From an uncultured Chitinophagaceae bacterium (lineage in GTDB: Bacteria; Bacteroidota; Ignavibacteria; UBA10030; UBA8401), in assembly GCA_964355925.1 (NCBI GenBank), contig CAYHFN010000010.1, positions 19,187-83,186 on the forward strand: 64,000 bases of DNA, read 5' to 3'. The position numbers and the translations under genes are program-made. Under the pieces are notes generated by a model. It worked only from the letters and a program-made list of their open reading frames with translations. It had not been told where the DNA came from and ran no database searches. Below are positions 6,858 through 53,492 of the stretch, piece after piece (positions within the stretch are counted from its first letter, which is position 1; each line of letters opens with the position of its first letter).

Positions 6858-7064
6858 AAGGCTGTATTTGTTTTAAAGCTAGAAAAAAGATGGAATTCAC
6901 CGCTAACTATTTAAACAATATGTATGCCATGACCGAATTGCTGTTATCAGAGAAATTCGATGAAAATATTTGATCCGACTTATTGATTTAATAATGCATG
7001 TTATTAAGTTGATAATGAAAAATCGCAAAAAGATTGCCTATTCCAAGATATTGAGTCTGTTTCA

Positions 7065-9116: not shown

Positions 9117-9160
9117 TGATCTTGGATTTGTGGAACTATTTGATCGAAGGCTATTATCCG

Positions 9161-11014: not shown

Positions 11015-11015
11015 A

Positions 11016-17607: not shown

Positions 17608-17620
17608 GATAATCGTGATG

Positions 17621-22656: not shown

Positions 22657-22713
22657 GAAATAATTGAAACATCGGTTAGTCGTTTTACTAAGTTTTAAAT
22701 TTCTGTTAATTAA

Positions 22714-26332: not shown

Positions 26333-26381
26333 AAAATTATTTTCTCATATCATTCACATTACTGCAACGGCACAATGACAT

Positions 26382-27251: not shown

Positions 27252-27294
27252 AGAAATTGTCCCCTGAACTCCGGAAAATTTTGACCGGACTATA

Positions 27295-28260: not shown

Positions 28261-28284
28261 CTATATTTAGAATATTTGTGATTG

Positions 28285-29526: not shown

Positions 29527-29580
29527 AAGATTCCTATAATAAAATGGATAAATTTGTTAATTTACAATCTGTGAAACTGA

Positions 29581-30642: not shown

Positions 30643-30690
30643 TCAAAATAAACCACCGGATAGTATCATGGTGGCAGTTTCAAAAAAAAA

Positions 30691-32508: not shown

Positions 32509-32564
32509 AATAGAATCCTTTATATGAGTAAATAAGTAATGTTAAATTGTCAAATAGAATTTTG

Positions 32565-36694: not shown

Positions 36695-36716
36695 GACTAG
36701 TGTGGTTATATGATAT

Positions 36717-38747
36717 TTATTTGATCAAAATCATTTTTCGTGATTCAACAAAGTTTCCGGCCTGTATATTGTAGAGATACAGTCCGCTTGCTAATGCAGA
36801 TGCGTTGAACGTTGCCGAATAATAACCCGCTTCTTGATCTTCATTTACTAATGTCGTCACTTCTCTTCCGATCGAATCAAAAATTTTTAATGATACGTGA
36901 TTGTTCACCGGTAATTGATAACTGATCATTGTTGTTGGATTGAACGGATTTGGATAATTTTGGTACAATTGAAAATCGTTCGGTTGTGGTTCTTCACGCA
37001 TTCCAATTCCCGTACTCACACCTTCAGCTGCAAAATATCCGGCAACAAATACCAACGGTGCATTCCAATTGATCGCAATCTCATTCGATGCATAACTTCC
37101 CTCTTCATCCGTATAGATCATTGCCGGCGGTGTTAATGCAGAAAATTTTGCCTTCAATACAGGGTCACTTCTTCCCTGTTCCGGACCTCCGGCAAGCAAT
37201 CCTGGAACCGGTTCAACAATTCCATCTGCTGATGAAGGACGATGGTGCGGATGCAAAACGTGATGAGCGCCGATCCCTGTTACAAACGAAATATTGTGCG
37301 CATTATTCCCGAGAATATAATTGAGTTGGGCTAGTGCCGCATTCAACATTGACTGATCTTTATTTTCGCGTGATGCAAGGATTAATAATATTGCTTTATT
37401 TAATACGCCGGAATTGCTTCCCCAATCATATTCGCCGGTAGAAAGTGAAACAGAAAATCCGTCATTGGCAATAGAACTAACAAGCGAAGTTGCATAATCT
37501 AAAAGCGATTGACGCAGTGTTATTTTATTTAAATTACTTGCAGACGCTTGTTGTGTGTAAAGATAGGCTAAATGCGCCATCGTTCGAACATTGGGCCACC
37601 CCATCGGCTGAGAAAGCAATGCACCGGAAGCATATCGTGTGGAATAATATGAATTGAATGTTGCTTCCCCTGTTGTTGAAAATAATTCCGCTGCAGCCCA
37701 TAAACGTTCATCGGAATCATTGCCGTCACCATATTCTCCCGTTGCTGTTCCCGATGGATTTTTGAAGCCTCCGGTTGGAACGATGGATGGATGCGCCTGC
37801 AAATATTCCCACGCACGGCGCGAAACCGATAGACAAGAATCGGAAAATTTTTGATCGAACGATTTATAGATGCGTGCTGCTCGCGCAAACACTGCGGCAA
37901 AATCCCCCGTTGCGGTCGTTGATATTTGGTAAATATATCTCGTTCCATTATCAACAGAAGGCATAACAAATCCTTCAAATTGTTCACGCGTCACCTTAAA
38001 ATAAACTCCGCCGCCGGAGTGCTGCATCTTCAACATCCAATTCAATTCATACCGCACTTCATCCAAAATATCAGGAACTGAATTTCCGCTTTCAAATATG
38101 CCGAGATTGTCATTGGAGAATCGTGTCGGGAACATTTCATACGCCATGAGCATTGTCCCGACTGAGATACCGGCATTAACGGTATATTTTCCAAAATCTC
38201 CGGCATCATGCCAGCCGCCGCTGACTGTTCTATATCCTGTTGAATCAGAAGTTGAGTGATATGTTCCGTCATTCCCGTGGCATCCGGCTCGAGCATATAT
38301 CCCTGCAAAAAGTGAATGCAATAATTGGCCGCAACGCTGGAAATAAAACCCCTTTAACGAGGATAGAAATACAGATTGAAATACCGTGTCAGAGATTGAA
38401 AATTCGTATGATTGTTCGGAGGGAGAAACTGAGATATAATATGTTCCCGGTTTTTTGAAGGAAGAAAAATCTCCTTTGTACACTGTTAATCCTGTGGCAG
38501 GGTCGTTCGTTTTAGAAAGGGTGATCTTACCTGAGAAGGAAACCGTGTTAGTACTTTTTTCGACTATCTTAAAACTATCCGCAAGGGTGGTGGTAAAGAA
38601 TATTTTTTGTCCGTTCGGAAAATACCCCGCTTGATTCACCATCACCGACGATGTTGCAATTGGTATCAACAAAAAACAGAGAGTAACAATCTTGAACAAC
38701 AATCGTCGCATCATACAATTAGAAATTGTTGTTACGCAGATCAGCAA
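36717..38747 (-). CDS. GH9 endoglucanase with N-terminal Ig-like (CelD_N) module and T9SS CTD
   Basis: 676-aa ORF; the likely true start is MMRRLLF at about 38714. Blocks VNQAGYFPNGQK (Ig-like module), SGGWHDAGDFGKY, DERLWAAAELF, SFVTGIGAHHVLHPHHR and YASNEIAINWNAPLV. CTD LYQNYPNPFNPTTMISYQL...RKMILIK. Confidence 0.9.
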   Translation of the reverse strand: MLICVTTISNCMMRRLLFKIVTLCFLLIPIATSSVMVNQAGYFPNGQKIFFTTTLADSFKIVEKSTNTVSFSGKITLSKTNDPATGLTVYKGDFSSFKKPGTYYISVSPSEQSYEFSISDTVFQSVFLSSLKGFYFQRCGQLLHSLFAGIYARAGCHGNDGTYHSTSDSTGYRTVSGGWHDAGDFGKYTVNAGISVGTMLMAYEMFPTRFSNDNLGIFESGNSVPDILDEVRYELNWMLKMQHSGGGVYFKVTREQFEGFVMPSVDNGTRYIYQISTTATGDFAAVFARAARIYKSFDQKFSDSCLSVSRRAWEYLQAHPSIVPTGGFKNPSGTATGEYGDGNDSDERLWAAAELFSTTGEATFNSYYSTRYASGALLSQPMGWPNVRTMAHLAYLYTQQASASNLNKITLRQSLLDYATSLVSSIANDGFSVSLSTGEYDWGSNSGVLNKAILLILASRENKDQSMLNAALAQLNYILGNNAHNISFVTGIGAHHVLHPHHRPSSADGIVEPVPGLLAGGPEQGRSDPVLKAKFSALTPPAMIYTDEEGSYASNEIAINWNAPLVFVAGYFAAEGVSTGIGMREEPQPNDFQLYQNYPNPFNPTTMISYQLPVNNHVSLKIFDSIGREVTTLVNEDQEAGYYSATFNASALASGLYLYNIQAGNFVESRKMILIK

Positions 38748-38911: not shown

Positions 38912-39943
38912 TTAGAAAATGATCCCAACGGAAAACTTTTGGGCATTATTGAGTCGTTGATAATCTTGATACGCATAATCAAATGTTAACTGCGTGTTTC
39001 CGATAAGAGCCTGTTGAATTCCAAATCCAAGAGTGAATCGTTCTTCGGCATTTTCCAAAAAGAGAGATTTATATCCGCCGCGTAAGAAGATATAATCGTT
39101 AAACACGTACTCTCCGCCAAGATCGATACTCTCATAATTGTCACTTGGATGTGATGCGTCCATTGCAACTACTAATCGATTTCCATCGATTGAAAAAACA
39201 TTGTACGCAATTCCTACTTTAAAATTCAATGGAAGGGTCCATTCATCCGTGCGGGCATCGGCAGGAATGTGAGCATTGTTACCGGTGGTAAAAATATCCG
39301 GATCATACAGAACGATGGTATTATTTCCCATCAACCGCATTTTCGATCCAAAATTTGAAATGGACATTCCAAGGGTGATCCCCTCAAACGGTGTTTGGTA
39401 TTTTACTCCCATATCAATAGCAATTGCTGAAGCACTCGTCTTCCAGATTTTTTGGTAGACGAATTTTGGATTGAATCCGATTGAGAATTTATCCGTCAGT
39501 TTTATTGCATACGTTATACCAACCGCTGCATCGCTCACACCAAACATTTCACCGGTTCCCTCAGGTTTATCCACTGTTGTTACACGCATTTCAGGAACGC
39601 TGGAGGATGTAAGATTCAAACCAACCACACCAATATCCCCAAGATTAATCGTTGCCCCGACATAATTGTATTTGATATCGGCGATCCACTGAGTATAGTC
39701 GAACACGATCCTGGTTCCGGTAAGATCGGCTATTCCTGCAGGATTCCAATACATTGCGCTTTGATCATTGGCAACAGCAACAAATGCTGTTCCCATTCCC
39801 AAAGCGCGAGCGCCTTGTGCAATGGAAAGAAAGGGAGCCGCAGTTGTTCCGCGCTTTGATACATTCGAAACAAACTTCTGCGCCGGCATCGTGGATGCAA
39901 TTAAGAACAACACGGTAATAATTTTTGTGATATTCGATTTCAT
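38912..39943 (-). CDS. PorV/PorQ-family outer-membrane beta-barrel protein (T9SS-associated family)
   Basis: 343-aa ORF with a signal peptide. The N-terminal block TTAAPFLSIAQGARALGMGTAFVAVANDQSAMYWNPAGIA matches the PorV-family pattern as I recall it (AVPFL.I..D.R..GMG......D.....WNPA). Alternating beta-strand hydrophobicity throughout, and a terminal aromatic residue (...FSVGIIF). Confidence 0.65.
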   Translation of the reverse strand: MKSNITKIITVLFLIASTMPAQKFVSNVSKRGTTAAPFLSIAQGARALGMGTAFVAVANDQSAMYWNPAGIADLTGTRIVFDYTQWIADIKYNYVGATINLGDIGVVGLNLTSSSVPEMRVTTVDKPEGTGEMFGVSDAAVGITYAIKLTDKFSIGFNPKFVYQKIWKTSASAIAIDMGVKYQTPFEGITLGMSISNFGSKMRLMGNNTIVLYDPDIFTTGNNAHIPADARTDEWTLPLNFKVGIAYNVFSIDGNRLVVAMDASHPSDNYESIDLGGEYVFNDYIFLRGGYKSLFLENAEERFTLGFGIQQALIGNTQLTFDYAYQDYQRLNNAQKFSVGIIF

Positions 39944-39961
39944 AATGACTATCGTTTAGAG

Positions 39962-42900
39962 TTATTTAATAAGTGCAAATTTTCCGATATGTGTTCCCAC
40001 ACCCGGTGCATCGACATGATAGATGTACAGACCATAAGCAACATCTGTTCCGTCTTCGGAGACAAGATTCCATGAAAGTGCACCATTAGCCGCACCCGAT
40101 TCTTTCTCCAACGTTTTCACCAATGCACCGGAAACTGTATAGATGCGAATGGTGCATTTCTGTGGAAGATTGATAAAATCAATTTTGCGGTCACCACGGC
40201 CGGTTGCATAGATCGTCTTTGGTTCCCACGATGCATATCCTACATACGGATTTGGAACAACGCTGATATTGCTTAATTGATTTTTTGCGATGCCAATATC
40301 CGTTCGCGAAGATTTTGTTCTAACAGAAAAATAATCACCGGTAAAGAATGGCTTCTTCGTTTTGAAAATATATTTATCCCCTGCCTGTGGAAACACCGGA
40401 TTACCAAAATAGAAATAGGCTATTTTCCATGGGATCCAAAGATCGACATTGTTGTTCGTGAATTCCAAAACTTTAATGAAATCTCCCGAGCTCAATTTGC
40501 TGTCACCATCATTGTCCTGAATGATAAATTTATTTCGATGCCCGAACGTTGTATTGGTGATCGTGAAGTTAACCGGTATCGGCGGGTACACAACCGGATC
40601 CAGATCTCCGTTCGACGTGTCAGCATTGGCGGCGAAATATTTTATTTCATAATCGCTGGGCCATAATTTGTTAATTGACGGAGCTGAACTGTCCGGTGTG
40701 ACCATAAAGAATATTGAAGGCTTTCCAACGGTCCAGCCCATTGTATCCAAAACGATCTTGGAATCATTCTTTATTGCAAGTGTCATTCCATCAAACGGAG
40801 AACTCGTTTTATCTCCCGAAACGTCGGCAATTTTTACGTCACGCAATACCGTATCAACGGTAGTTCCGATCGTTCGAATAACACTGACAGATTTTGTTCC
40901 ATAGGCTGGAAATTTTCCGCTGGAATCGAATTTGATTTTGTATTCTCTGCCGGTCGCGATAGAATTTGGATTAACAACTTGAATAGTCAATGAACCAGTA
41001 CCAATTCCCTCAGCCACCCGATTTAGACTTCCTTCGATTTGAGGAGGAACATATCCTGATGCCGCTGCATTCGGAATAACTACCGCACAATTGATATCGG
41101 TGAATTTCAATGTTCCGTTTACATCTTCAGTGATGATCTTTGGAGACTCTGTCGGCTGTAATCCTGTTTTGCCGTATTTTGGATCTCCTTGATCGTACGA
41201 AACTATTGCATAATAATATTTTACCCCATTCTTTACATCTTTATCGATGTAGGAATGCTGCAATCCCGTGTTATTACCGCGCCAAAAATGTGCGCCATTG
41301 ATTCCAACAGGATCAGGTCCTTGGATACTGTCAACGACATCATATTGCGCAATCGGTTTCCAATATTTTTTTGCCCCTTTTGAATCAGTGATCGTTTTCA
41401 CATCATTAAATTCTGCTTCTTGACTTCTCATTACCATGTATCCTTCAAAATCTTTTTTTCGTAGGAATCTATCATACGAATTCTCAGACCCATTATCCCA
41501 ATAAAGAAATACCTGTTTATCTCCGGCAACAGCAGTGAGGTGCGGAGTGAGCGGAGGAGCAGAAAAATTATAATAGGCATTATAGATCGCTTGAACTGTC
41601 GTTTTATTGAAAATAACCTGATCAAGATCTTGGCCCATAATCAACGCCATTGAAAATCGTTCACGTGCACCTTTGTTCAACGGAAACGGTCCTGAAGAGA
41701 ACACAATACTGATGTTCGAATTTGTGATCCCTGTATCAACAAATCCTCCGGTCATTTTTCTCCAGAGCACTTCATTGTTCTTCGGCCAAACACCATTCGG
41801 ACCTTTATCAGATAATGGTGTTAATGAAACAGCAGATAAACCAATTTGATCGGATTCATCTTTGTCGGTCTCATCAAAATTAGGTTCGCCATGAGTTGGA
41901 AGTGCATCACCTTCTCCGGCATCAGCTCCTTTGTACTGAGGATCGAACGGTCCAACACCATCTGCACCAAGATCATCATTCAGTGGTTCACCCGGATCCC
42001 ATTGATTGTTCTTATTGATATCTTCATATTTCACCCAATTTTTATTATTATCAATGCCATCATCGCGTTTTTCATCTATTAATCCGTCACCATCATCATC
42101 TATCCCATTTTGCGCATTCCCTGGACTTTCCAAATATGCGTAGGCATAGTATCCTGTTAACCATGTACCAAATTGCGGTTCACCTTTTCCAAGATGATCC
42201 CATGCATAACAGAGATCAAGAGCTGTGCTGTAACTTGCATCATCATTTCCACTGGCAGGTCCGCCGACACCAGGATCAGAGAAAAAGCCAAAACATGTAC
42301 TGTCATATTTTACATCAGACATGTTAACAATATCATAATGCCAGAAAACTACATCTTCGGCAAGCACATGCGACCATTGAAATCCGCGAACTTCAACACG
42401 CAGACCAAGACCGCCCCTATCTGAATCCGAAGCTATTGGATAATATTTATATGGAGGTCGTTTATATTTTCCATCTTTTGAATCATCCATAACAAAGAAT
42501 GTTTCGAAATCAGCATTATTCACTCCTCGTCCAAAATATCCATACCAATATCCGTTCCACTCCGGTGTTTTTCCAAGTGCAGCCGGCCAAACCGGCGGGA
42601 ACGACATTGAATCTCTGTTTACTGCAGGAGTCTTTGTTGGATTTTTTAAATTCATATATCCGGGAAGCGGTTCAAATCCCCAGATCAAACCGGTTACAGG
42701 GTCTTTCGGCATTTCTTCGCGATACGAAGTTTCCAGCGGATGAATGATCTGACTATTTCCCGGAGCTGTTACCCGTGCTGAAACAAGAACCGAAACACCG
42801 TCAAGATATTGATGTCCGGAACCTTTCGGCCATTCAAGCGATGGTGAGTATGGCCATTGCCCTACTTCTCCGTTGCTGAAATATAATGTGCGGACATTAT

Positions 42901-43051
42901 TTCCATCCATTGTTCCCTGCCGGCGAAATTGATATTCCCCTTTTGCATCATCGCGATAACCTTGAATTTGCGGACTCACTTGTGCGTGTAACATAACAAG
43001 TGAAAAACAAACCATTAGAGATAAAGAAAATTTTTTAAACGGAACCTTCAT
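39962..43051 (-). CDS. Large secreted protein of unknown function with an Asp-rich calcium-binding (thrombospondin type-3-like) repeat block and a divergent T9SS/FlgD-Ig-like C-terminal domain
   Basis: 1029-aa ORF with signal peptide MKVPFKKFSLSLMVCFSLVMLHAQ. Acidic block GIDDDGDGLIDEKRDDGIDNNKNW...NDDLGADGVGPFDP...DETDKDESDQIG. C-terminus VVPNPYVG...CTIRIYTVSGALVKTLEKE...LSWNLVSEDGTDVAYGLYIYHVDAPG...GKFALIK. No catalytic motif recognised. Confidence 0.6.
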   Translation of the reverse strand: MKVPFKKFSLSLMVCFSLVMLHAQVSPQIQGYRDDAKGEYQFRRQGTMDGNNVRTLYFSNGEVGQWPYSPSLEWPKGSGHQYLDGVSVLVSARVTAPGNSQIIHPLETSYREEMPKDPVTGLIWGFEPLPGYMNLKNPTKTPAVNRDSMSFPPVWPAALGKTPEWNGYWYGYFGRGVNNADFETFFVMDDSKDGKYKRPPYKYYPIASDSDRGGLGLRVEVRGFQWSHVLAEDVVFWHYDIVNMSDVKYDSTCFGFFSDPGVGGPASGNDDASYSTALDLCYAWDHLGKGEPQFGTWLTGYYAYAYLESPGNAQNGIDDDGDGLIDEKRDDGIDNNKNWVKYEDINKNNQWDPGEPLNDDLGADGVGPFDPQYKGADAGEGDALPTHGEPNFDETDKDESDQIGLSAVSLTPLSDKGPNGVWPKNNEVLWRKMTGGFVDTGITNSNISIVFSSGPFPLNKGARERFSMALIMGQDLDQVIFNKTTVQAIYNAYYNFSAPPLTPHLTAVAGDKQVFLYWDNGSENSYDRFLRKKDFEGYMVMRSQEAEFNDVKTITDSKGAKKYWKPIAQYDVVDSIQGPDPVGINGAHFWRGNNTGLQHSYIDKDVKNGVKYYYAIVSYDQGDPKYGKTGLQPTESPKIITEDVNGTLKFTDINCAVVIPNAAASGYVPPQIEGSLNRVAEGIGTGSLTIQVVNPNSIATGREYKIKFDSSGKFPAYGTKSVSVIRTIGTTVDTVLRDVKIADVSGDKTSSPFDGMTLAIKNDSKIVLDTMGWTVGKPSIFFMVTPDSSAPSINKLWPSDYEIKYFAANADTSNGDLDPVVYPPIPVNFTITNTTFGHRNKFIIQDNDGDSKLSSGDFIKVLEFTNNNVDLWIPWKIAYFYFGNPVFPQAGDKYIFKTKKPFFTGDYFSVRTKSSRTDIGIAKNQLSNISVVPNPYVGYASWEPKTIYATGRGDRKIDFINLPQKCTIRIYTVSGALVKTLEKESGAANGALSWNLVSEDGTDVAYGLYIYHVDAPGVGTHIGKFALIK

Positions 43052-43073
43052 TGTACACTCCTGAACTTATGAT

Positions 43074-45836
43074 CTAAAATCCTAGATTTACCCCAAAACG
43101 CACTTGGCGTGGGTTTGAAAAACTTCCCGGGTTATTTTGATATTCGGCGATGGTATTTACACCAACAATCTTCTGCGCATTTTGTGCGGTAGTCAGATCG
43201 ATGTTTGCTCTTCCGCTCCAAGCATCAACGTTGTTCTCATTTTTCGTATCAAGAACATTATAGATCAGCATGAAGACCGAAAGATTAACATCTCCAAATT
43301 GAAAATTCTTTTCTGCGCGCATATCAAGATTGCTTGTCGACGGTTTTAAAGCGCCATTCTCAAATCGTATCAGTGAGGCACGGGTATCTTCCGTATACGG
43401 GAAACCATTTCCGTATTGGAAAATAAGTCCGACGGTCCAATTTCCAATTTCACCGACCGTTAAGTTTAAATTAAACGTAGAACGCTGATCCCAGTTTAGC
43501 GGAACCAATTGTTTGTTTGTTTCTACCGGCGGATTACTTTGATTGTTATAAAAATTTGAAAGCGGATCAGATGCATCACCTTCGGCAATTTGATATGTGT
43601 AATCTCCGCGCAAGCTGAAATAATCTGCAAAACGTCGATCAAGCGAAATAATCAAACCGCGAATGCTTCCATAATCACGGTTGATGAATCGTCCATATTT
43701 AACACCTTGGGTTGTATTGATGATCTCCATTCCGAGAAGATTTCGGATATCACGGTAATAGATGGTAAAATCAACTCCGATATTTTCAAACAACGATTGC
43801 TGAAGTCCAAGTTCATATGTTGTTGTTCGCTGAGCCTCTAAATCCGGATTTCCCGTTCGTGCGGATAATGTTGCACCGCTTTGCACCAAATAATCTGAAT
43901 TACTGTAAAGATTTTCAAATGTTGGTATCTGGAAAAAATGCCCGTACGAAAAATGGATAATGCCTTGATCGGTGATCGGAAATGAAACTCCTAACCGCGG
44001 ACTGACTTGAATTTTGGCTGTTGCCGATTTTAATGGATATAACTTTCGGACTGAATCAGTTGTTGCTTCTTGCGGTGGCGTTGTAAGATCAACAAGATAT
44101 TTTGAATTCGGATCGAAATAATCTACGCGCAAACCGGCGTTGATGATCATGCTTCCATATTCCATTTTGTCTTGAACATATGCAGAAGCTTCACGCGGTC
44201 GTTTATCATACATTTGGTTTCCGGCAGATCCTAGTTGAGGATACCGTAATGTGGTCAGCGTAATTCCCGCACTGTCTATATCATAGGTGGTGATCCCCGT
44301 TCCATGATTAAATATTTGATGTATTCGTCCTTCTACACCAATTCCGATCTTATGTTCCTTTGAAATTTGCGAGGTTATAGACCATTGACCAATCACCGAT
44401 TGTGTATTTGATTCATATCTGCCGCTGTTCATACCGCCGCTGCGAAACGTATAATTGGTGATGGGACTTCCTTGCGATGGATTTACATAGCGCGGATCAT
44501 TTGGGTTTTCAAAAACATATCCTTTGCCGCGGAAATTATTGACGGAAAATTTTAATGTCTGGAATGTACTTTGCGACGGCACATGACTGATCTGAAATGA
44601 ATTGATCGTGTTGCGCGAATAATTACTCATAATTCCGTCCGGTGTTAACCGATAATTATGATCATAGCCCTTACTGAAATTATCCTCCCAAAAATAACCA
44701 TACGTGAACTTGAATTCAGAAAGTGAATACGTTAATTTTCCATTCAACGAATATTTTCGATATGGATTCATTGAAACAACGGCACCATCACCGGTTTTGA
44801 TCATTGTGTAAATATTTCCGGATTCATCGGATACTTCATTTTTGCCAAGTGGATCTCCATTTTCTTTTACTTGACCTCCAAAAATATCCCGTTTCGCAAT
44901 AATATTATCGCTGATATTGAATATCCGCTTACCAAATAAAAATCCTTGATCGTTGATATATCGTCCGGTAATAAAAAATGTTAAACGATCATCAATTCCG
45001 GTTGGCCCGCTTAAACTCGCTTGAAAATTTTTTGATCGTGAAATATCAAAGTTGTCAAGATTCAAATATGTATCTGTATGGTTCGTATAATGGTCTCCCC
45101 AATAGGAAGAGAACGAACCGGAATAGTTGCTGCTTCCGTCTTGTGTTACGATATTTACAATTCCGGACATTGCCTGCCCGTACTCTGCGTTGAACGTTCC
45201 ACTGATAACTTCCATCTCACGAATGGAAGAATTTTCAGGGGTAAAACCAGCGTTTCCGTTTGCAGGATTATTGATAGGCATACCATCAATTAAATATGCC
45301 ACTTCTCCGTTTCTACCGCCGCGAAAATGCCCACCAACAACACCAGCCTGTAAGTTGATGATTTGGTTGATATTTTCCACCGGCATTACTTTAATTTCAT
45401 CCGACGAAACCGTCACTGAAGACGATGTAAGATCTTTTTGAACAAGCGGACGCTGTGCCTGAATAACTACTTCTTGTCCGATCACTTCTGTTGGAGAAAG
45501 TTTTACATTAATTTCTGTTGTTAGATCTATCTTTACAATAATATTTTTAATTGTGGTGTTTTGATATCCCACGCTTCGTACAACTAACGAATACGTGCCG
45601 GGTGCGATATTCGCGATATAATAATCTCCCTGAAAATCAGAAGCCGCTCCCATTTTCGTCCCTTGGATCATAAGCGAAATGCCGATAAGAGGTTCACCTG
45701 TTTTTTCATCAGTAACTTTGCCCGAAATTTTTCCCGTTTGACCTGCGTTCATTGGCAGAACAAATACCAGCAACGCACCACAGATAATAATAATTTTTTT
45801 CAGGGATCGAGCATACAACAATAATGAATGGTTCAT
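43074..45836 (-). CDS. TonB-dependent outer-membrane receptor with N-terminal carboxypeptidase-regulatory-like domain (SusC-like architecture, no SusD partner)
   Basis: 920-aa ORF. CarboxypepD_reg-like block GKISGKVTDEKTGEPLIGISLMIQGT...GDYYIANIAPGTYSLVVRSVGY. Plug region VMPVENINQIINLQAGVV. Long beta-barrel ending ...QVRFGVNLGF. Confidence 0.85.
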   Translation of the reverse strand: MNHSLLLYARSLKKIIIICGALLVFVLPMNAGQTGKISGKVTDEKTGEPLIGISLMIQGTKMGAASDFQGDYYIANIAPGTYSLVVRSVGYQNTTIKNIIVKIDLTTEINVKLSPTEVIGQEVVIQAQRPLVQKDLTSSSVTVSSDEIKVMPVENINQIINLQAGVVGGHFRGGRNGEVAYLIDGMPINNPANGNAGFTPENSSIREMEVISGTFNAEYGQAMSGIVNIVTQDGSSNYSGSFSSYWGDHYTNHTDTYLNLDNFDISRSKNFQASLSGPTGIDDRLTFFITGRYINDQGFLFGKRIFNISDNIIAKRDIFGGQVKENGDPLGKNEVSDESGNIYTMIKTGDGAVVSMNPYRKYSLNGKLTYSLSEFKFTYGYFWEDNFSKGYDHNYRLTPDGIMSNYSRNTINSFQISHVPSQSTFQTLKFSVNNFRGKGYVFENPNDPRYVNPSQGSPITNYTFRSGGMNSGRYESNTQSVIGQWSITSQISKEHKIGIGVEGRIHQIFNHGTGITTYDIDSAGITLTTLRYPQLGSAGNQMYDKRPREASAYVQDKMEYGSMIINAGLRVDYFDPNSKYLVDLTTPPQEATTDSVRKLYPLKSATAKIQVSPRLGVSFPITDQGIIHFSYGHFFQIPTFENLYSNSDYLVQSGATLSARTGNPDLEAQRTTTYELGLQQSLFENIGVDFTIYYRDIRNLLGMEIINTTQGVKYGRFINRDYGSIRGLIISLDRRFADYFSLRGDYTYQIAEGDASDPLSNFYNNQSNPPVETNKQLVPLNWDQRSTFNLNLTVGEIGNWTVGLIFQYGNGFPYTEDTRASLIRFENGALKPSTSNLDMRAEKNFQFGDVNLSVFMLIYNVLDTKNENNVDAWSGRANIDLTTAQNAQKIVGVNTIAEYQNNPGSFSNPRQVRFGVNLGF

Positions 45837-45858
45837 ATGAATAAATTTTTTTATGATT

Positions 45859-45885
45859 AAACAACAAGGGGGCTTGTTAGCCCCC
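45859..45885 (-). terminator. Intrinsic terminator-like / attenuator hairpin between the 902-aa gene and the TonB receptor gene
   Basis: On the minus strand, GGGGGC-TAACAA-GCCCCC (45885-45868) is followed by TTGTTGTTTAATC. This GC stem is the only GC-rich element in a 65-nt AT-rich spacer. Confidence 0.45.
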
Positions 45886-45901
45886 CTGCAGTGATGAAAA
45901 A

Positions 45902-48610
45902 TTACTTTAAGAACATCATCTTTTTTACTGCGGTGAATGAACCGGATTCAATCTTGTAGATGTACATACCGCTTGCTAAACGTGTTGCATTTAGCTGAAT
46001 TGTATGAGCACCTGCATCTTGAACAGTGTTCACCAGTGTAGCAACTTCACGACCAAGAATATCATATACTTTCAATGATACTAGTCCGGATTTTGCTAAA
46101 CGATAGTTGATCGATGTTGTCGGATTGAAAGGATTCGGATAGTTCTGCGACAATTCATATGAATTGAGAACTCCTGCATCTTCTTTTACGCCAACGGTCG
46201 AAAGATTACCAATCCATGTATGGGTCCAGCGATATTGATGTTCCCATGAATTATCGTCATTCATAGATGAATAGCATAAGATAGCATCACGATCCGTTTT
46301 ACTATCGCGATCATTGATAGAGAAGTCGATCGGAATGCGCATTCCTTCTCTTGGTGATGTAAAGAGACTATCTCCTGATCCTACTTCTTTAAATCGTGTC
46401 CACGGAATCATTGCTTCAACAATATATCCCGCTCCTAGTGCTTTCTTTTTCCATGAATAATTTGCTCCGGGGAACATTACATCTTTTCCACCGTTATCAA
46501 GGAAAATTTTGTTCGAGTTGAATCGAAGATGATAATCCGGGGTTTTTCCATGAGCATAACCGCCATGTTTCTTTCCTCTCCAGTCATAAAGACCGATGAA
46601 AAGATCCGGCGAATCTTGCTGGTAACTGGTTCCTGCTGTATCAACAGAAACGGTATCATCAACAACATCAAATGCCACGTAGAGATTGTTGGCATCAATT
46701 GCAAGATATGCTTTTACGGAAATGTCGAGACTGTCATTCATTTTTCCGTTTGGAGCCATGTGTGCTGTTGGTGTTGCACGGAAAGCATTCAAAACAATTG
46801 GAGAAATAGTTGTCCATTCTCCTGCTGCCAATGCACCGTCTGCTTTAAAGCCAACAGGTGCAGTCTTTGAAATTGTCGGAACACCTTTCGCTTTATTGGT
46901 ATATGGACCGGCAACTGCAACTTTGTTTTTGTTTCCGGAAGCATCTGTTGCCGTTACACCATAATAATAAGTAACATTTTGGTCAGTAACAGGTGCGCGT
47001 AATACGTGTGTTGCGAACTGCGTGCCAAGCGGTAAACCGTAAGGCGGCAGATCTTCAACGATGGAAGAATCCGCATTCGTAAATGTTTTTTCACTCATAT
47101 ACACATCGTATTTTGAAGCTGGTTCATTTGGAACATCTGACCATGTGATCAAGTTAGCAAATGTACCCGGTGTCGCAAGAATTCCGGTAACAGCTAGCGG
47201 AGGTGTTTTATCCGTGCTTCTGAAACCAGACGGAATAATAGAACTTAAAAGAACTTTACCCGAGTGAACAAGAGTAGGCCCATTGGGTTCGCCTGCATCT
47301 TTACTTGCGGAAAATTCGATCTTGATCTGTTTGATCTTGTCAAGATTCATAACACCATCGGAACCATTCACTGCATAGAACCCTGCGTACGGTTTCCCTG
47401 CAAATTCACCCCAACTGCCTGATAGCCCGTTAAGTGGCATTGATACCATCTGCCAGCCTAGCGTTTTACCAATAGAGTCAAGTCTTACATTGGCGCGCGT
47501 AAACCATTCATCTCCGGCTGCTGGCGTAGCTCCCAACACACCTTCACGAAGTACAAATCTGAGAGACATAACATTTTCAACTTTACCTGATGATGATACA
47601 AGCGGATCAACAACTTTTACCCACATATTGATATGGGTATTTCCTGATAGATCCGGTACGATCGATCCGGCAGGTAAATCATATACCATATTTGCAAATC
47701 CTCCCCAACCTTCTGATATGTTGACTTTATATGCAACACTTAATGCCGAAGGAGAAATAAGCGTATCAGCTGTTTCTTTTGCAAATGCAATTCCGCCGAG
47801 AGCTCCCCAGAATCCAGTTTTGTAGTTTGTTGTGTCTTGTGTAAAGTCATTGAATTTATAAATTGGCTGGTATGCATAATCCAACAATTGCATTTTATCC
47901 CAAACAATTTCTCCGCTGGCTGTTGAATCTCCGCCAAGTGGATTGGTTGTCCATTCAAATGTGTAACCAATAATTTTGTCAAGACTCAATTTACCATCGT
48001 TTTGTGTTCCGCTCCATCCGGGAAGGTTAAAACCAAGATCACTTGGTCCGCCTGGTCCGAGATCTTTCAACGGAACGATCAATTGTTTCCATCCTGGTGT
48101 TTGATCGAACACATTGGCAGATTGGAAATACCAATCTTCAACATCGGAGACACCACCGCCCCAATACGTGGAATTTCCACCGGCTTCATGCAATTTCAAA
48201 CGCATTTGAACTGCACCAACAGGAGCAGTAGATTTTGTTAAATTATTGAACCAAACGCTAATGAACTTTGCAGTTCCAAAATTCATATATGTGCTGTCTT
48301 TGTACAATGCACGATATTTTTTTGCATAGTACGAGCTATCTTTTGCACGCGGCATCTTGAATTCAAAGCCGTTGTTTCCGCCATAACCTTCTGTTGCGTG
48401 CAGTTTCCATGATGTTTTGTATGCTTTTGCTCCATGAACAGCATATGCTGTATCATATTGAAGTAAATATGCCTTCTTTGCGCTTGAGTTGAATGTAAGC
48501 GTCATCATGGTATCTTTTATAGTTGATTCAAAACTATTAAAGACCCACTGAGCGGAAAGCGGTAAAGCAAGAACCATGGAAGCTACGAGAAGTAGAATTT
48601 TCTTCTTCAT
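45902..48610 (-). CDS. Surface glycan-binding-type protein: tandem CBM-like beta-sandwich modules, Fn3, CBM9-like module and T9SS CTD
   Basis: 902-aa ORF with signal peptide MKKKILLLVASMVLALPLSAQ. Repeated modules carry E-G-(Y/W)-G-G motifs (HATEGYGGNNGFEF; NISEGWGGFANMVY). Fn3-like LITWSDVPNEPASKYDVYMSE...YYYGVTATDASGN. CBM9-like AYLAIDANNLYVAFDVVDD...DLFIGLYDW...YIVEAMIPW. CTD LSQNYPNPFNPTTSINYRL...KKMMFLK. No catalytic motif seen. Confidence 0.6.
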   Translation of the reverse strand: MKKKILLLVASMVLALPLSAQWVFNSFESTIKDTMMTLTFNSSAKKAYLLQYDTAYAVHGAKAYKTSWKLHATEGYGGNNGFEFKMPRAKDSSYYAKKYRALYKDSTYMNFGTAKFISVWFNNLTKSTAPVGAVQMRLKLHEAGGNSTYWGGGVSDVEDWYFQSANVFDQTPGWKQLIVPLKDLGPGGPSDLGFNLPGWSGTQNDGKLSLDKIIGYTFEWTTNPLGGDSTASGEIVWDKMQLLDYAYQPIYKFNDFTQDTTNYKTGFWGALGGIAFAKETADTLISPSALSVAYKVNISEGWGGFANMVYDLPAGSIVPDLSGNTHINMWVKVVDPLVSSSGKVENVMSLRFVLREGVLGATPAAGDEWFTRANVRLDSIGKTLGWQMVSMPLNGLSGSWGEFAGKPYAGFYAVNGSDGVMNLDKIKQIKIEFSASKDAGEPNGPTLVHSGKVLLSSIIPSGFRSTDKTPPLAVTGILATPGTFANLITWSDVPNEPASKYDVYMSEKTFTNADSSIVEDLPPYGLPLGTQFATHVLRAPVTDQNVTYYYGVTATDASGNKNKVAVAGPYTNKAKGVPTISKTAPVGFKADGALAAGEWTTISPIVLNAFRATPTAHMAPNGKMNDSLDISVKAYLAIDANNLYVAFDVVDDTVSVDTAGTSYQQDSPDLFIGLYDWRGKKHGGYAHGKTPDYHLRFNSNKIFLDNGGKDVMFPGANYSWKKKALGAGYIVEAMIPWTRFKEVGSGDSLFTSPREGMRIPIDFSINDRDSKTDRDAILCYSSMNDDNSWEHQYRWTHTWIGNLSTVGVKEDAGVLNSYELSQNYPNPFNPTTSINYRLAKSGLVSLKVYDILGREVATLVNTVQDAGAHTIQLNATRLASGMYIYKIESGSFTAVKKMMFLK

Positions 48611-48677: not shown

Positions 48678-50090
48678 TTATACTGCTACCGATCTTTTTG
48701 AAAACTTCCGTTCCATAATTATGGAAATTCCGATCGATAAAACTATCGATAAAAAAAATATGGCGGTTGCTGCCCCATACGGAGTTGTCATAAAAGGTGA
48801 AAGAATATCCGCTCCACTGTACGTCAACAGTGTAATGATACTCCCTGCCGACATTCCCCCGACAACGCCGAATGTGATTCCGCTTTTAAAAATATTATTC
48901 GTGAAAATATAAACGGTGAACGCACCTACGATCGAGGCTGCTAACCATGAAAGATATTGTACATAAACCAACAATGTTATCGCTCCAAATAATTGAGCAA
49001 AAGGAATATAAAGAATTGTGAGAAGTGCAGAAAGCACAATGACAAGCCGAGCAACAAGTACATGTTTTTCGTCAACGCTCTGCTGAACCTGATCATGAAA
49101 GAACTGCACGACAACTATTGTTGCAATGTTTTGAAATGAATGTGAAAAAGCTGAAACCATCACCGAAACAACTCCCAGCACAAAAAAGAATGCCAGCAAT
49201 TCATTGTTCACCAGCATTGTTGCTGCTGCTGCTGATTCTAACGGAATTGTTTCGCCGAAACTTTTCGTCGGAAAGACAACAAGCGCGATCACGATCAAAG
49301 AAAATGAAGCGAACATTGCACCATTGGAATTTCGCTGTTCGTTTTGTTTCCCCTGAAGATGAAACGCGCTGTTATCGATCCACCACATCCACCATGTGAT
49401 AATTGAGAATCCGATAAACCCTATGATCCAATTCGTTTCAACAAAATTATTGTTTTGAAAATACTGAGCGCCTTCCGTAAAGAGCATTTGCAAGAACATC
49501 AACGGAGCCGAAACTGATCCTCCCAGAACCATTATGACCAGCATCGATGCAATAACTGCAACGCCAAACATTGCATTTGCGTAGACAACAACTTTTTTCC
49601 CTCCAATGAGTGTTGTTATACCTGCTACGCCAATTAAAAACACTAACAAAAAATGATACGAACCGCCAAAAAACTGAGCGATGATTTTTTCTCCAAGATA
49701 TAATAGAGCAAATGGTTGAATGATCACAAAAAAGATAATTGCAGCAAAAAATAGAAATATTTTCAAATTTGCCGAAAGCAATTCCATAAATCGATTAATA
49801 ATCTCAGATTTATTTTTGATAAAAAGAAGCGGTAGCAATACAGAAAAAATTAACGAAAGTATAATGAGTATTGTCGGAACAGAAAGTGATAAAATCGGCA
49901 GCAGTAAAATCCAAAACTGAAAGATTGAACCGGTAAACAGGGATAGGGCGGAAACGATCCAAATTGAATTTTTCCCGCCATTTAAAAAAATCGAATCTCC
50001 TTCTCCCGAATTACGTGAAAAATAAATGCTAACGGAAGCAACAATTCCGACAAATATATAGAGAAAGCTATTATAATGCGATATTTGCAT
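48678..50090 (-). CDS. Polytopic inner-membrane permease, distantly sodium:solute-symporter-like
   Basis: 470-aa ORF with about 12-13 hydrophobic helices. The N-terminus FSRNSGEGDSIFLNGGKNSIWIVSALSLFTGSI loosely resembles the SSF start (DYFLAGR.L.....G.SL.A...S). It is the first gene after the sigma54 promoter. Confidence 0.4.
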   Translation of the reverse strand: MQISHYNSFLYIFVGIVASVSIYFSRNSGEGDSIFLNGGKNSIWIVSALSLFTGSIFQFWILLLPILSLSVPTILIILSLIFSVLLPLLFIKNKSEIINRFMELLSANLKIFLFFAAIIFFVIIQPFALLYLGEKIIAQFFGGSYHFLLVFLIGVAGITTLIGGKKVVVYANAMFGVAVIASMLVIMVLGGSVSAPLMFLQMLFTEGAQYFQNNNFVETNWIIGFIGFSIITWWMWWIDNSAFHLQGKQNEQRNSNGAMFASFSLIVIALVVFPTKSFGETIPLESAAAATMLVNNELLAFFFVLGVVSVMVSAFSHSFQNIATIVVVQFFHDQVQQSVDEKHVLVARLVIVLSALLTILYIPFAQLFGAITLLVYVQYLSWLAASIVGAFTVYIFTNNIFKSGITFGVVGGMSAGSIITLLTYSGADILSPFMTTPYGAATAIFFLSIVLSIGISIIMERKFSKRSVAV

Positions 50091-50110: not shown

Positions 50111-50126
50111 TGCACATAATATGCCA
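50111..50126 (-). promoter_or_regulatory. Sigma54 (-24/-12) promoter upstream of the permease gene
   Basis: The minus strand reads tt-TGGCAT-attat-GTGCA, against the consensus TGGCAC-N5-TTGCA. GG and GC are at the canonical 10-nt spacing, with 2 mismatches overall. The -12 element ends 21 nt upstream of the ATG at 50090. A sigma54-dependent activator is encoded immediately upstream. Confidence 0.7.
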
Positions 50127-53473: not shown

Positions 53474-53492
53474 ACTATATCTTCTAATGAAA

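What the first reader, a model, noticed from the sequence alone, without database searches (positions are those of the whole stretch)
38912..48610. SusD-less TonB-receptor cassette flanked by T9SS cargo and a private PorV/PorQ-like barrel: candidate undescribed glycan capture/import module
Four consecutive minus-strand genes sit directly after the sigma54-driven permease and ahead of about 14 glycoside hydrolases. In order they are:
- a 902-aa non-catalytic multi-CBM/Fn3/CBM9 protein with a T9SS CTD;
- a 920-aa TonB-dependent receptor with SusC-like architecture (CarboxypepD_reg domain, plug, barrel);
- a 1029-aa secreted protein of unknown function with an Asp-rich Ca-binding repeat block and a divergent CTD;
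- a 343-aa PorV/PorQ-family outer-membrane barrel.
In Bacteroidota PULs the receptor is always paired with a SusD lipoprotein plus lipid-anchored surface glycan-binding proteins. Nothing SusD-like (a helical lipoprotein of about 550 aa) exists anywhere in these 64 kb. Here the binding proteins appear to be anchored through the T9SS, and a PorV paralogue is encoded inside the locus. PorV is known as the shuttle that carries CTD cargo from the T9SS translocon. In Flavobacterium, type-B CTD cargo needs an adjacent dedicated PorP/SprF-like barrel, so a cargo-plus-private-barrel pair next to a TonB receptor is a coherent inference. I do not know of it being characterised.
Basis: partly seen in the sequence, partly recalled or inferred. 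Interest (0 to 1): 0.8.

Follow-up and report, generated by a model that had tools for sequence, protein, structure and literature searches.

The report
TonB receptor with T9SS-anchored partner
A β-glucan-degrading gene cluster from an uncultured Ignavibacteria-like bacterium holds a strictly conserved, undescribed trio of genes: an outer-membrane TonB-dependent importer, a large secreted protein of unknown family, and that protein's own PorV-like barrel, which together probably do the job that SusC/SusD does in Bacteroides.

Summary
The 343-aa protein is a PorV/PorQ-family barrel (NF033709, 223 bits against a cut-off of 90), but it does not reach the cut-offs for PorV, PorQ or PorV2. The 920-aa protein is a TonB receptor with a SusC-style N-terminus that fails the SusC family model. 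The 902-aa protein carries CBM9 and a type-A T9SS sorting domain (CTD). The 1029-aa protein ("X") matches no Pfam, NCBIfam or PDB sequence family. No SusD is encoded in the window.

The conserved unit is the trio receptor→X→barrel, not all four genes. It keeps the same order, with gaps of about 15-20 bp, in nearly all of about 170 loci examined. These come from Ignavibacteria and from assemblies labelled KSB1, Marinimicrobia and Caldithrix. The trio sits in β-glucan loci and, as paralogues, in α-glucan loci beside CBM20/CBM48 T9SS cargo and sugar regulators.

X is predicted to have a galactose-mutarotase-like supersandwich head with an Asp-rich insert, an Fn3-like domain, two variable β-sandwiches and a divergent but unusually conserved CTD.

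Best reading (confidence 0.6): the T9SS exports X, its private barrel holds it beside the receptor, and it captures glycan there as a SusD analogue. This rests on comparative genomics and structure prediction only. I found no publication describing it.

The parts
43074..45836 (-). TonB-dependent receptor, 920 aa. It has a signal peptide, a CarboxypepD_reg-like N-terminal extension (37-125), a putative TonB box (EVVIQA), a plug and a barrel. First gene of the conserved trio.
   Evidence: Pfam domains. TIGR04056 SusC is not met. A family profile matches generic TonB receptors in the PDB and matches SusC only over the N-terminal extension and plug. It lies directly upstream of X in nearly all loci, with a median gap of 16-21 bp.
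39962..43051 (-). Protein X, 1029 aa, of an undescribed family. Parts: signal peptide (cleavage ..LHA|QV, no lipobox); supersandwich head (24-500) with an Asp-rich insert (311-405); Fn3-like domain (501-665); two variable β-sandwiches (666-925); divergent T9SS CTD (926-1029).
   Evidence: No Pfam, NCBIfam or PDB sequence hit. AlphaFold models: pLDDT 81.7 for the full chain and 85.4 (pTM 0.89) for the head. Foldseek matches the head to the N-terminal supersandwich of GH94/GH149/GH116/GH15-like enzymes. Large family: 610 clusters (at 50% identity) at E<=1e-30.
38912..39943 (-). PorV/PorQ-family outer-membrane β-barrel, 343 aa. It is the dedicated partner of X and the third gene of the trio.
   Evidence: NF033709 at 223.5 bits, below the PorV, PorQ and PorV2 equivalog cut-offs, with no PorP/SprF hit. 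Best PDB match is PorV 6h3i_F. It lies directly downstream of X, with a median gap of 13-14 bp. Barrels from distant trios score the same way.
45902..48610 (-). Accessory T9SS cargo, 902 aa. It has two related N-terminal modules of unknown family, an Ig/Fn3-like region, CBM9 (619-795) and a type-A CTD (824-899). It is a likely surface glycan-binding protein.
   Evidence: Present upstream of the trio in 59 of 84 orthologous loci. CBM20/CBM48/X25 + CTD proteins take the equivalent place in α-glucan loci.
45864..45889 (-). Strong terminator-like hairpin (11 pairs, 7 of them G-C) between the CBM9 gene and the receptor gene.
   Evidence: It may lower expression of the trio relative to the CBM9 protein. 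Function not tested.
48678..50090 (-). Polytopic inner-membrane permease, 470 aa, with a weak sodium/solute symporter signal.
   Evidence: NCBIfam TIGR00813 at 24 bits. Hydropathy shows about 11-13 hydrophobic segments. An SSF transporter occupies this position in Ignavibacterium sp..
50111..50126 (-). σ54-like -24/-12 element, TGGCAT-N5-GTGCA, 21-36 bp upstream of the permease start codon.
   Evidence: There is one mismatch to the consensus. The motif count in the whole window is not above chance, so only its position supports it.
50514..54812 (-). Regulatory genes: σ54-dependent response regulator (50514-52013), histidine kinase (51974-53473) and periplasmic solute-binding protein (53493-54812).
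   Evidence: Pfam. The kinase and regulator are co-located with the trio in 28-30 of 84 orthologous loci.
1..38747 (-). β-glucan degradation and uptake genes. Most carry type-A CTDs: GH9, GH2, GH16+malectin, GH3, GH16 x3, MFS transporter, ROK kinase, GH5 x3, a GH63-like protein, two ASST-like proteins, CotH, a rotamase, a TPR/GDSL protein, a standalone CBM9 protein, GH3+PA14, and GH81+PKD+CBM6 (which runs off the window).
   Evidence: Pfam. GH16, GH3, GH5, GH9 and GH2 neighbours recur in the orthologous loci.

Best explanation
The receptor, X and the PorV-like barrel encode one outer-membrane nutrient-uptake unit, used here for β-glucan fragments.

Steps shown by the data: the three genes are co-inherited in fixed order with gaps of about 15-20 bp. 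X has a Sec signal peptide without a lipobox and a divergent T9SS sorting domain. The barrel belongs to the PorV/PorQ family.

Steps inferred:
1. The solute-binding protein, kinase and σ54 activator switch on the operon.
2. The T9SS exports the locus's CTD-tagged hydrolases and the CBM9 protein to the cell surface.
3. The T9SS also exports X. Its conserved CTD is not cleaved and stays docked in its private PorV/PorQ-family barrel. This mirrors PorU-PorV, PorZ-PorQ and type-B cargo with PorP/SprF.
4. The barrel places X beside or over the TonB receptor. X's calcium-stabilised supersandwich head then captures oligosaccharides released by surface GH16/GH81/GH5/GH9 enzymes and passes them to the receptor. 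In function this makes X an analogue of SusD or of surface glycan-binding proteins.
5. TonB-driven import follows. CTD-less GH3 and GH16 enzymes complete hydrolysis in the periplasm, the MFS or 470-aa permease takes up the products, and the ROK kinase phosphorylates the glucose.
For: Synteny: the receptor→X→barrel order holds in 73 of 77 orthologous loci and 48 of 55 distant loci under a strict gap rule. Nearly all exceptions are artefacts of over-extended ORF calls, and two loci have the order permuted but all three genes present.

Taxonomic range: the trio is present in loci from assemblies labelled KSB1, Marinimicrobia and Caldithrix. Two trios occur on a single contig in L085 and in L092.

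Co-diversification: pairwise distances of the three proteins correlate. X-receptor r = 0.975 (all loci) and 0.861 (distant loci); X-barrel r = 0.932 and 0.764; a Mantel test gave 0 of 500 permutations as high.

Glycan context changes with the paralogue. Here the neighbours are GH16/GH3/GH81. Elsewhere they are GH13, GH31, CBM20/CBM48/X25 CTD proteins, LacI or TrmB regulators and sugar ABC transporters.

CTD conservation: X's CTD is more conserved than the rest of X (60 vs 49% over all loci; 70% among orthologues; 52% family-wide). The CTDs of enzyme cargo in the same loci are less conserved than their catalytic parts (37-52 vs 50-63%). This fits a retained, partner-binding domain.

Other structural hints: the X CTD faintly resembles the retained CTDs of PorU and PorZ. 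The head has a carbohydrate-associated supersandwich fold.

Precedents: cognate barrels that hold uncleaved CTDs and set the cargo's destination (PMC10202324, PMC9143113, PMC12618676), and a FadL/PorV-like barrel that docks on another barrel as a platform for surface proteins (BamG, PMC12578637).
Against: No experiment or complex prediction shows that X, the barrel and the receptor touch each other.

The supersandwich match is partial (TM about 0.35-0.39 normalised to the query). That fold also occurs in proteins that do not bind glycans, such as the YidC P1 domain.

The head and the Asp-rich insert stay conserved across paralogues that sit in loci for different glycans. This suggests a structural or protein-docking role rather than substrate recognition, which may instead reside in the variable 666-925 region or in the separate CBM-bearing cargo.

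X's CTD does not reach the threshold of the type-A models.

Some distant trios sit beside FG-GAP, GDSL or β-lactamase-family genes rather than CAZymes. The module may therefore not be glycan-specific.
Confidence: 0.6

Rival explanations
1. X and its PorV-like barrel form a surface-anchored pair that acts independently of the receptor. Examples would be an adhesin, a free-standing glycan-binding protein, or a scaffold that organises the CTD-tagged enzymes. On this view the receptor is only co-regulated with them.
For: The cargo-plus-cognate-barrel logic is established without any receptor (PMC9143113, PMC12618676). X has a long multi-domain β architecture resembling Fn3/Ig arrays. Its Asp-rich calcium-type motifs could mediate protein-protein contacts.
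Against: The receptor is immediately upstream in essentially every locus with room to see it, with a 16-21 bp gap, and it co-diversifies with X even more tightly than the barrel does (r = 0.975 and 0.861). Simple co-regulation would not preserve this adjacency across phylum-level lineages and different glycan loci.
Confidence: 0.2
2. X is a new surface enzyme, for example a glycan-processing or mutarotase-like activity built on the supersandwich fold. It would prepare the substrate for the receptor rather than merely bind it.
For: Many acidic, aromatic, His and Arg residues in the head are invariant in 96 orthologues. The fold is shared with galactose and hexose-phosphate mutarotases and with domains of many glycoside hydrolases and phosphorylases.
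Against: In the matching enzymes the supersandwich is the non-catalytic N-terminal domain, and X has no (α/α)6 or other catalytic domain. The conserved motifs persist in paralogues from α-glucan and β-glucan loci, which argues against one substrate-specific chemistry.
Confidence: 0.1
3. The trio is an export or biogenesis device rather than an importer. Either an Oar-type TonB-dependent protein secretes X, or the trio is a locus-specific T9SS attachment complex for the neighbouring cargo.
For: Receptors of several distant trios hit PF25183 (OMP_b-brl_4), which I recall as the Oar-like barrel model (the recollection is not checked). A PpiC-type rotamase, a possible chaperone, recurs next to trios. 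X weakly resembles PorU and PorZ at its C-terminus.
Against: X carries its own T9SS signal, so it does not need a receptor-based exporter. X has no peptidase-like domain. Many paralogous trios exist, two on one contig, each in a nutrient-type locus with sugar regulators and inner-membrane sugar transporters. That pattern fits uptake.
Confidence: 0.05

Closest known systems
SusC/SusD core of Bacteroidota polysaccharide utilisation loci (the 'utilisome')
   Same: A TonB-dependent transporter with a carboxypeptidase-regulatory-like N-terminal extension is encoded next to a large surface partner. It sits inside a regulated CAZyme locus with extra surface glycan-binding proteins, and it is reused in paralogous loci for different glycans.
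   Different: The receptor fails the SusC/RagA model (66.6 bits against a cut-off of 368). The partner is an all-β protein of about 110 kDa with a T9SS CTD, not a helical TPR lipoprotein of about 65 kDa. A third gene, a PorV-like barrel, is obligatory. Surface display would use the T9SS rather than lipoprotein export.
[quoted passage not shown]
   Same: The cargo gene is followed immediately by its private β-barrel. Stoichiometric pairing is implied. The barrel is thought to hold the uncleaved CTD and fix the cargo's final location (PMC9143113, PMC12618676).
   Different: Here the barrel is PorV/PorQ family (NF033709), not PorP/SprF (no TIGR03519 hit). The CTD is a divergent type-A-like β-sandwich, not type B (no TIGR04131 hit). 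The third partner is a TonB receptor, not a peptidoglycan-binding PorE.
PorU-PorV and PorZ-PorQ pairs of the T9SS attachment complex
   Same: Large proteins whose CTDs are retained and bound to a PorV/PorQ-family barrel. X's C-terminus gives faint hits to exactly these CTDs, and Foldseek lists PorZ and PorU.
   Different: PorU and PorZ are housekeeping secretion components, described as one set in the systems studied (from memory, not tested here). X and its barrel occur as many paralogues inside nutrient loci. X has no peptidase or β-propeller domains.
BamG in the Bacteroidota BAM complex (PMC12578637)
   Same: A 14-stranded barrel of the FadL/PorV superfamily docks on another large barrel and serves as the platform for extracellular proteins.
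   Different: The machine (BamA) and the partners (lipoproteins) are different. The window's barrel hits the BamG model only weakly (27.7 bits against a cut-off of 250).
SusD-less TonB receptor/CAZyme loci of Proteobacteria (the Xanthomonas 'CUT' loci cited in PMC13543919; the name is from memory)
   Same: Receptor, CAZymes, inner-membrane transporter and regulator are clustered without SusD.
   Different: I know of no dedicated surface partner or PorV-like barrel in those loci, and the T9SS is not reported in those phyla (from memory, not tested here).

Membership tests
PorV/PorQ family (NCBIfam NF033709) | Full-length match above the curated cut-off (90 bits) | tested here: met
   223.5 bits over residues 33-341, model positions 1-324 of 326. 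Barrels of distant trios score 192-231 bits.
T9SS PorV proper (NF033710), PorQ proper (NF033711), PorV2 (NF052325) | Score above the equivalog cut-off (250, 220 and 325 bits) | tested here: not met
   86.1, 92.3 and 74.1 bits. It is a separate branch of the family, not the housekeeping shuttle.
PorP/SprF family (TIGR03519) | HMM match | tested here: not met
   No hit at E<=0.01 in the NCBIfam scan.
FadL/OMPP1/TodX (Pfam PF03349) | Score above the gathering threshold (29.7 bits) | tested here: not met
   26.1 bits over the N-terminal third only. PorV (PF19572) scores 36.7, above its threshold of 27.
SusC/RagA TonB-linked outer membrane protein (TIGR04056) | Full-length match above 368 bits | tested here: not met
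   66.6 bits over residues 36-161 only. Receptors of other trios score 53-74 bits. The family profile matches solved SusC structures only over the N-terminal extension and plug.
TonB-dependent receptor (generic) | Plug domain, 22-strand barrel domain, TonB box and C-terminal aromatic residue | tested here: met
   PF07715 at 30.1 bits and PF00593 at 87.9 bits. The family consensus has a conserved EEVVV motif after the N-terminal extension. The protein ends in ...NLGF. That the motif is a functional TonB box is inferred.
SusD-like lipoprotein (PF07980, PF12741, PF12771, PF14322) | Any such gene near the receptor | tested here: not met
   No SusD family among the Pfam hits of all ORFs of at least 180 aa in the window, nor in the gene tables of related loci.
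T9SS type-A CTD (TIGR04183 / PF18962), applied to protein X | HMM match above threshold; seven-strand Ig-like β-sandwich at the extreme C-terminus | tested here: inconclusive
   No TIGR04183 or PF18962 hit. FlgD_ig scores 16.7 bits, below 27. hhalign against the window's CTDs gives probability 52% and E = 1.5e-4. There are faint PorU/PorZ CTD hits. The model has seven strands across 930-1027. PNPY, IYTxxGxLV and GxYIYHV...K motifs are visible.
T9SS type-A CTD, applied to the 902-aa protein and the neighbouring enzymes | HMM match above threshold | tested here: met
   TIGR04183 at 47.6 bits (cut-off 23) for the 902-aa protein. PF18962 hits above its threshold in nine window proteins in all: the 902-aa protein, GH9, GH2, GH16+malectin, the two ASST-like proteins, CotH and two GH5 proteins. 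The GH81 CTD is cut by the window edge and scores only 19.3 bits, below 27.
T9SS type-B CTD (TIGR04131) | HMM match in X | tested here: not met
   No hit.
Canonical PUL as defined in PULDB | Adjacent susC-like and susD-like gene pair | tested here: not met
   Neither a SusC-family receptor nor a SusD is present.
Galactose mutarotase-like supersandwich fold (head of X) | Structural superposition with solved members | tested here: inconclusive
   Foldseek probability 1.00 and E down to 1e-7 against the N-terminal domains of GH15-like, GH94, GH149 and GH116 enzymes. TM is only 0.30-0.39 and sequence identity 7-10%. The query is a predicted model (pLDDT 85).

The most novel reading that the evidence does not exclude
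Several FCB-group lineages outside Bacteroidia (Ignavibacteria, KSB1, Marinimicrobia, Calditrichota) build their glycan importers in a different way from Bacteroides. [quoted passage not shown] On this reading the T9SS and its shuttle-barrel family are used to assemble nutrient-uptake machines, not only to display enzymes and adhesins. The trio would be a second, independent 'utilisome' architecture.
Probability: 0.4. Interest if true: 0.85.

Novelty: new variant of a known kind. Interest (0 to 1): 0.78.

Why it matters
Glycan uptake by TonB-dependent transporters is understood structurally only for SusCD in Bacteroidia. How the many SusD-poor relatives that degrade polysaccharides in sediments, soils, hot springs, wastewater and the ocean load their transporters is unknown.

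A fixed receptor/X/PorV-like trio found in hundreds of genomes gives a concrete, testable candidate. At least 610 protein clusters (at 50% identity) match X at E<=1e-30.

If the model holds, it would have four consequences:
- It would extend the role of PorV-family barrels from secretion shuttles to structural parts of importers.
- It would give a genomic marker for finding PUL-like loci where susC/susD searches fail.
- It would assign a role to a large family now annotated only as 'hypothetical protein'.
- Culturable carriers exist (Melioribacter roseus, Rosettibacter primus, Ignavibacterium album), so it can be tested directly.

Tried and rejected
Searches on X that gave nothing useful:
- Pfam and NCBIfam on whole X and on six sub-domains.
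- A PDB search with a profile of 96 sequences, which gave only a chance hit.
- Whole-chain Foldseek, which was dominated by generic Fn3/Ig arrays (TM <= 0.2). I therefore re-predicted the head alone.

Ideas considered and rejected:
- X as PorU, PorZ or another core T9SS part. Rejected because X has many paralogues, two on one contig, no peptidase or propeller domain, and a nutrient-locus context.
- The barrel as FadL. Rejected on scores.
- The Asp-rich block as thrombospondin type-3 repeats. No Pfam hit even at E<=5, so calcium binding remains an inference from DxDxDG-type motifs and from the ordered but non-regular model.

Weak or limited results:
- The σ54 motif search is not significant over the window (13 found, 8.4 expected). 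Only its position supports it.
- The σ70 promoter scan was at chance level.
- Nine literature searches found no description of the trio. The library holds open-access papers only, so this is not proof of absence.

Things I could not do:
- Count paralogues per genome, because the genome scan keeps only the best 80 loci.
- Run a complex prediction.
- Obtain taxonomy for the metagenome loci.

Full report
**Observation**

The gaps between them are 18, 22 and 65 bp.

The 343-aa protein matches the NCBIfam PorV/PorQ family model over its full length (NF033709, 223.5 bits, cut-off 90). It stays far below the equivalog cut-offs for PorQ, PorV and PorV2, and it gives no PorP/SprF hit. Pfam PorV passes its threshold and FadL/Toluene_X does not. 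The only meaningful PDB sequence match is Flavobacterium johnsoniae PorV.

The 920-aa protein has a CarboxypepD_reg-like N-terminal extension, a plug and a TonB barrel. The SusC/RagA model reaches only 66.6 of the 368 bits required and covers only the N-terminus. A profile of 36 such receptors matches solved SusC proteins only over the extension and plug, and otherwise matches generic receptors such as Cir and FepA.

The 902-aa protein has CBM9 and a type-A T9SS sorting domain. Its first 470 residues have no family hit and consist of two weakly related modules (E = 8e-5).

X has no Pfam, NCBIfam or PDB sequence relative, whether searched whole or in pieces.

No SusD-like protein is encoded anywhere in the window.

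**Context**

The surrounding locus is a β-glucan utilisation cluster. Upstream lie a solute-binding protein, a histidine kinase and a σ54-dependent response regulator. After a 423-bp gap comes a σ54-like -24/-12 element (50111-50126), 21-36 bp before a polytopic 470-aa permease.

Downstream are 13 GH-family proteins: GH9, GH2, four GH16, two GH3, three GH5, one GH63-like and one GH81. There are also an MFS transporter and a ROK kinase. Nine proteins in the window, counting the 902-aa protein, carry a type-A CTD above the Pfam threshold, and the GH81 CTD is cut off by the window edge (19.3 bits, below 27).

A strong terminator-like hairpin (45864-45889) separates the CBM9 gene from the receptor gene.

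Identical copies of this stretch occur on three metagenome contigs. The nearest genomes are Ignavibacteria-type assemblies.

**The conserved unit is a trio**

X belongs to a large family in which every named member is called 'hypothetical protein'. A word-indexed search gave more than 3,900 hits. An exhaustive HMMER search of 1.84 billion cluster representatives gave 4,730 clusters (at 50% identity) at E<=1e-3 and 610 at E<=1e-30. RefSeq also names the orthologues 'hypothetical protein'.

A scan of one genome per species found 372 loci. The best 80 are all Ignavibacteria-type and include Ignavibacterium album, Melioribacter roseus and the isolate Rosettibacter primus.

Among those loci plus four fetched by exact look-up, tblastn found the barrel in 83 of 84 and the receptor in 77 of 84. 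The order and strand were always receptor→X→barrel, and the missing cases lie at contig ends. The CBM9 protein was present in only 59 loci. GH16, GH3, GH5, GH9 and GH2 genes were almost always nearby.

Distant family members (32-49% identical to the query used for them) were fetched from metagenomes and by look-up. They show the same trio. With iterated HMMs and a strict adjacency rule, 73 of 77 orthologous and 48 of 55 distant copies with sequence on both sides have the full trio. Nearly all exceptions are ORF calls that I over-extended. Two loci have the order receptor→barrel→X, and only two lack a detectable barrel. Median gaps are 16-21 bp and 13-14 bp.

Barrels of distant trios score just like the one in the window (192-231 bits on NF033709, below all equivalog cut-offs). 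Their receptors likewise fail the SusC model.

The trio also occurs in assemblies labelled candidate division KSB1, Marinimicrobia and Caldithrix. Two trios can lie on one contig.

Pairwise distances of the three proteins are strongly correlated (r = 0.76-0.98; Mantel test 0 of 500 permutations as high). The trio is therefore inherited and duplicated as a unit. Part of this correlation simply reflects shared species history.

**Context of the paralogues**

I took the genes flanking distant trios and scanned them against Pfam.
- Of 76 downstream neighbours, 28 carry a T9SS CTD, 12 CBM20, 7-8 CBM48-type modules, 6 the X25 starch-binding domain and 6 an α-amylase domain. GH94 and GH43 also appear.
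- Of 80 upstream neighbours, 15 are PpiC-type rotamases, 10-12 are LacI-type sugar regulators and 10 are α-amylases. GH31 also appears.

This sample is biased towards the α-glucan subfamily, because a member of that subfamily was the query.

One fully read example is GH13 – rotamase – receptor – X – barrel – CBM20/CTD protein – sugar ABC transporter – TrmB – GH13/CTD.

The trio is thus reused in loci for different glycans, each with its own CBM-bearing T9SS cargo. This is the way SusCD pairs are reused in Bacteroidota PULs. Some trios sit beside FG-GAP, GDSL or β-lactamase-family genes instead, so glycans may not be the only substrates.

**Anatomy of X**

The AlphaFold models are usable: pLDDT 81.7 and pTM 0.75 for the full chain, and pLDDT 85.4 and pTM 0.89 for residues 24-505.

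X is almost entirely β-strand. Its parts are:
- a head (24-500) interrupted by an ordered, non-regular Asp-rich insert (311-405) with DxDxDG-type motifs;
- an Fn3-like domain (501-665);
- two β-sandwiches (666-925);
- a seven-strand C-terminal β-sandwich (926-1029).

Foldseek matches the head, at probability 1.00 but TM of only 0.30-0.39, to the N-terminal supersandwich domains of dextran dextrinase, GH94 phosphorylases, a GH149 β-1,3-oligosaccharide phosphorylase and a GH116 β-glucosidase. It also matches the YidC periplasmic domain, more weakly. The fold is therefore associated with carbohydrates but does not prove binding.

The C-terminal domain is a divergent T9SS signal. It gives faint matches to the C-termini of PorU and PorZ and a weak FlgD_ig hit. 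hhalign against the window's nine type-A CTDs gives E = 1.5e-4. The PNPY, IYTxxGxLV and YIYHV...K motifs are recognisable.

X has a signal peptide without a lipobox.

Per-domain identity to the window protein, orthologues then family-wide, is as follows:
- head: 65-67% and 31-35%;
- Asp-rich insert: 73% and 57%;
- Fn3-like domain: 71% and 42%;
- variable region: 42% and 23%;
- CTD: 70% and 52%.

In the enzyme cargo of the same loci the CTD is less conserved than the catalytic part (37-52% vs 50-63%). In X it is more conserved than the rest (60% vs 49%). That is what one expects of a CTD that is kept and binds a specific partner.

**Mechanism**

Established T9SS knowledge gives the template. 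PorU and PorZ keep their CTDs and sit on PorV and PorQ. Type-B cargo is encoded directly upstream of a cognate PorP/SprF-like barrel that is made in matching amounts, anchors the cargo and decides where it ends up (PMC10202324, PMC9143113, PMC12618676). In the Bacteroidota BAM complex, the FadL/PorV-like barrel BamG docks on BamA and carries a dome of surface proteins (PMC12578637).

By analogy I propose that X is exported by the T9SS, stays bound through its CTD to its private PorV/PorQ-family barrel, and is thereby positioned at the receptor. There it would capture oligosaccharides made by the surface GH16/GH81/GH5/GH9 enzymes and feed them to the TonB-driven transporter. Periplasmic GH3 and GH16 enzymes, the permeases and the ROK kinase would complete the pathway.

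What is shown: gene content, family membership, synteny, co-diversification, domain conservation and predicted folds. What is inferred: the physical complex, CTD retention, glycan binding and import. I give this reading 0.6.

The rivals are: an X-barrel pair that works independently of the receptor (0.2), X as an enzyme (0.1), and an export or biogenesis device (0.05).

**Comparison and novelty**

In function the trio resembles SusCD. It is not a member of that system, because both the SusC and the SusD tests fail.

In its cargo-plus-private-barrel logic it resembles type-B CTD/PorP-SprF operons and the PorU-PorV and PorZ-PorQ pairs. It differs from them in barrel subfamily, in CTD type and in having a TonB receptor as the third partner.

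Loci that combine a receptor with CAZymes but lack SusD are ordinary outside Bacteroidia. The absence of SusD is therefore not the surprise. The obligatory X-barrel pair is.

Nine full-text searches found no description of the arrangement. They covered the Melioribacter and Caldithrix genome papers, T9SS reviews and a September 2026 review of glycoside transporters that never mentions T9SS or PorV. A 2023 study noted only that susCD genes are scarce in Ignavibacteriales CAZyme clusters.

I rate this a new variant of a known kind, namely TonB-dependent glycan uptake loci, assembled from known superfamilies in an undescribed way. Interest is 0.78. The finding is widespread, coherent and directly testable in culturable carriers, but so far it rests on computation alone.

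Noticed in passing
window 9161-11014 (-) and 7065-9116 (-); L173, L085, L090 and other loci: A PpiC-type rotamase of about 560-620 aa and a TPR + GDSL-lipase-like protein recur next to trios. The rotamase is 15 of 80 upstream neighbours. GDSL appears in 8 and TPR in 6 of 76 downstream neighbours. tblastn finds homologues of the window's TPR/GDSL protein in 17 distant loci. In KSB1 locus L173 the order is LacI-rotamase-receptor-X-barrel-CBM/CTD-FG-GAP/CTD-TPR/GDSL. These may be further parts of the system, for example a periplasmic chaperone.
   Followed up: partly
window 17621-20494 (-) and 20494-22656 (-): Two arylsulfotransferase-like (ASST β-propeller) proteins, one of them with CBM4_9 and both with type-A CTDs, sit in the middle of a β-glucan locus. 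This is an odd family for such a locus and they may be unrecognised glycan-active enzymes.
   Followed up: no
window 15934-17607 (-): A CotH kinase-like protein with a T9SS CTD lies inside the locus. Homologues are present in 15 of 84 orthologous loci, usually next to GH5+CBM6. A secreted CotH in a glycan locus is unexplained.
   Followed up: partly
window 45864-45889 (-): A strong G+C-rich hairpin (11 pairs) sits in the 65-bp gap between the CBM9 gene and the receptor gene. It could act as an attenuator or as an mRNA-stability element that sets the ratio of CBM9 protein to trio.
   Followed up: no
window: N-termini of 39962-43051, 45902-48610, 38912-39943 and 1-3153 (all -): The predicted signal peptides all appear to be cleaved just before a glutamine (LHA|QV, LSA|QW, MPA|QK, VSA|QV). 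This is the 'Q-rule' reported as specific to Bacteroidetes and not shared by the whole FCB group (PMC5837995). Here it appears in an Ignavibacteria-like organism.
   Followed up: no
L123 5956-13657 and L125 2-6836: Two metagenome loci carry the trio in the permuted order receptor→barrel→X. The three genes stay together even when rearranged.
   Followed up: partly
L085 5304-21096 and L092 1-15503: Two separate trios lie within about 20 kb on one contig. In L092 they are on opposite strands. In L085 a rotamase and an FG-GAP/CTD protein lie between them. This shows that paralogous trios coexist in one genome.
   Followed up: partly
window 1-3153 (-) and 5976-6857 (-): A GH81 + PKD + CBM6 + CTD endo-β-1,3-glucanase-type protein runs off the left edge of the window. 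A standalone 293-aa CBM9 protein without a CTD lies nearby, and it has no homologue in any of the 175 related loci.
   Followed up: partly
L010 (CAYPEM010000023.1) and L014; L016 (JBLMZA010000101.1): The closest genome matches to the window (92% and 71% identity for X) are labelled 'uncultured Chitinophagaceae'. Another relative is labelled Acidobacteriota. Their gene content and neighbours look Ignavibacteria-like, so these bins are probably mislabelled or contaminated.
   Followed up: no
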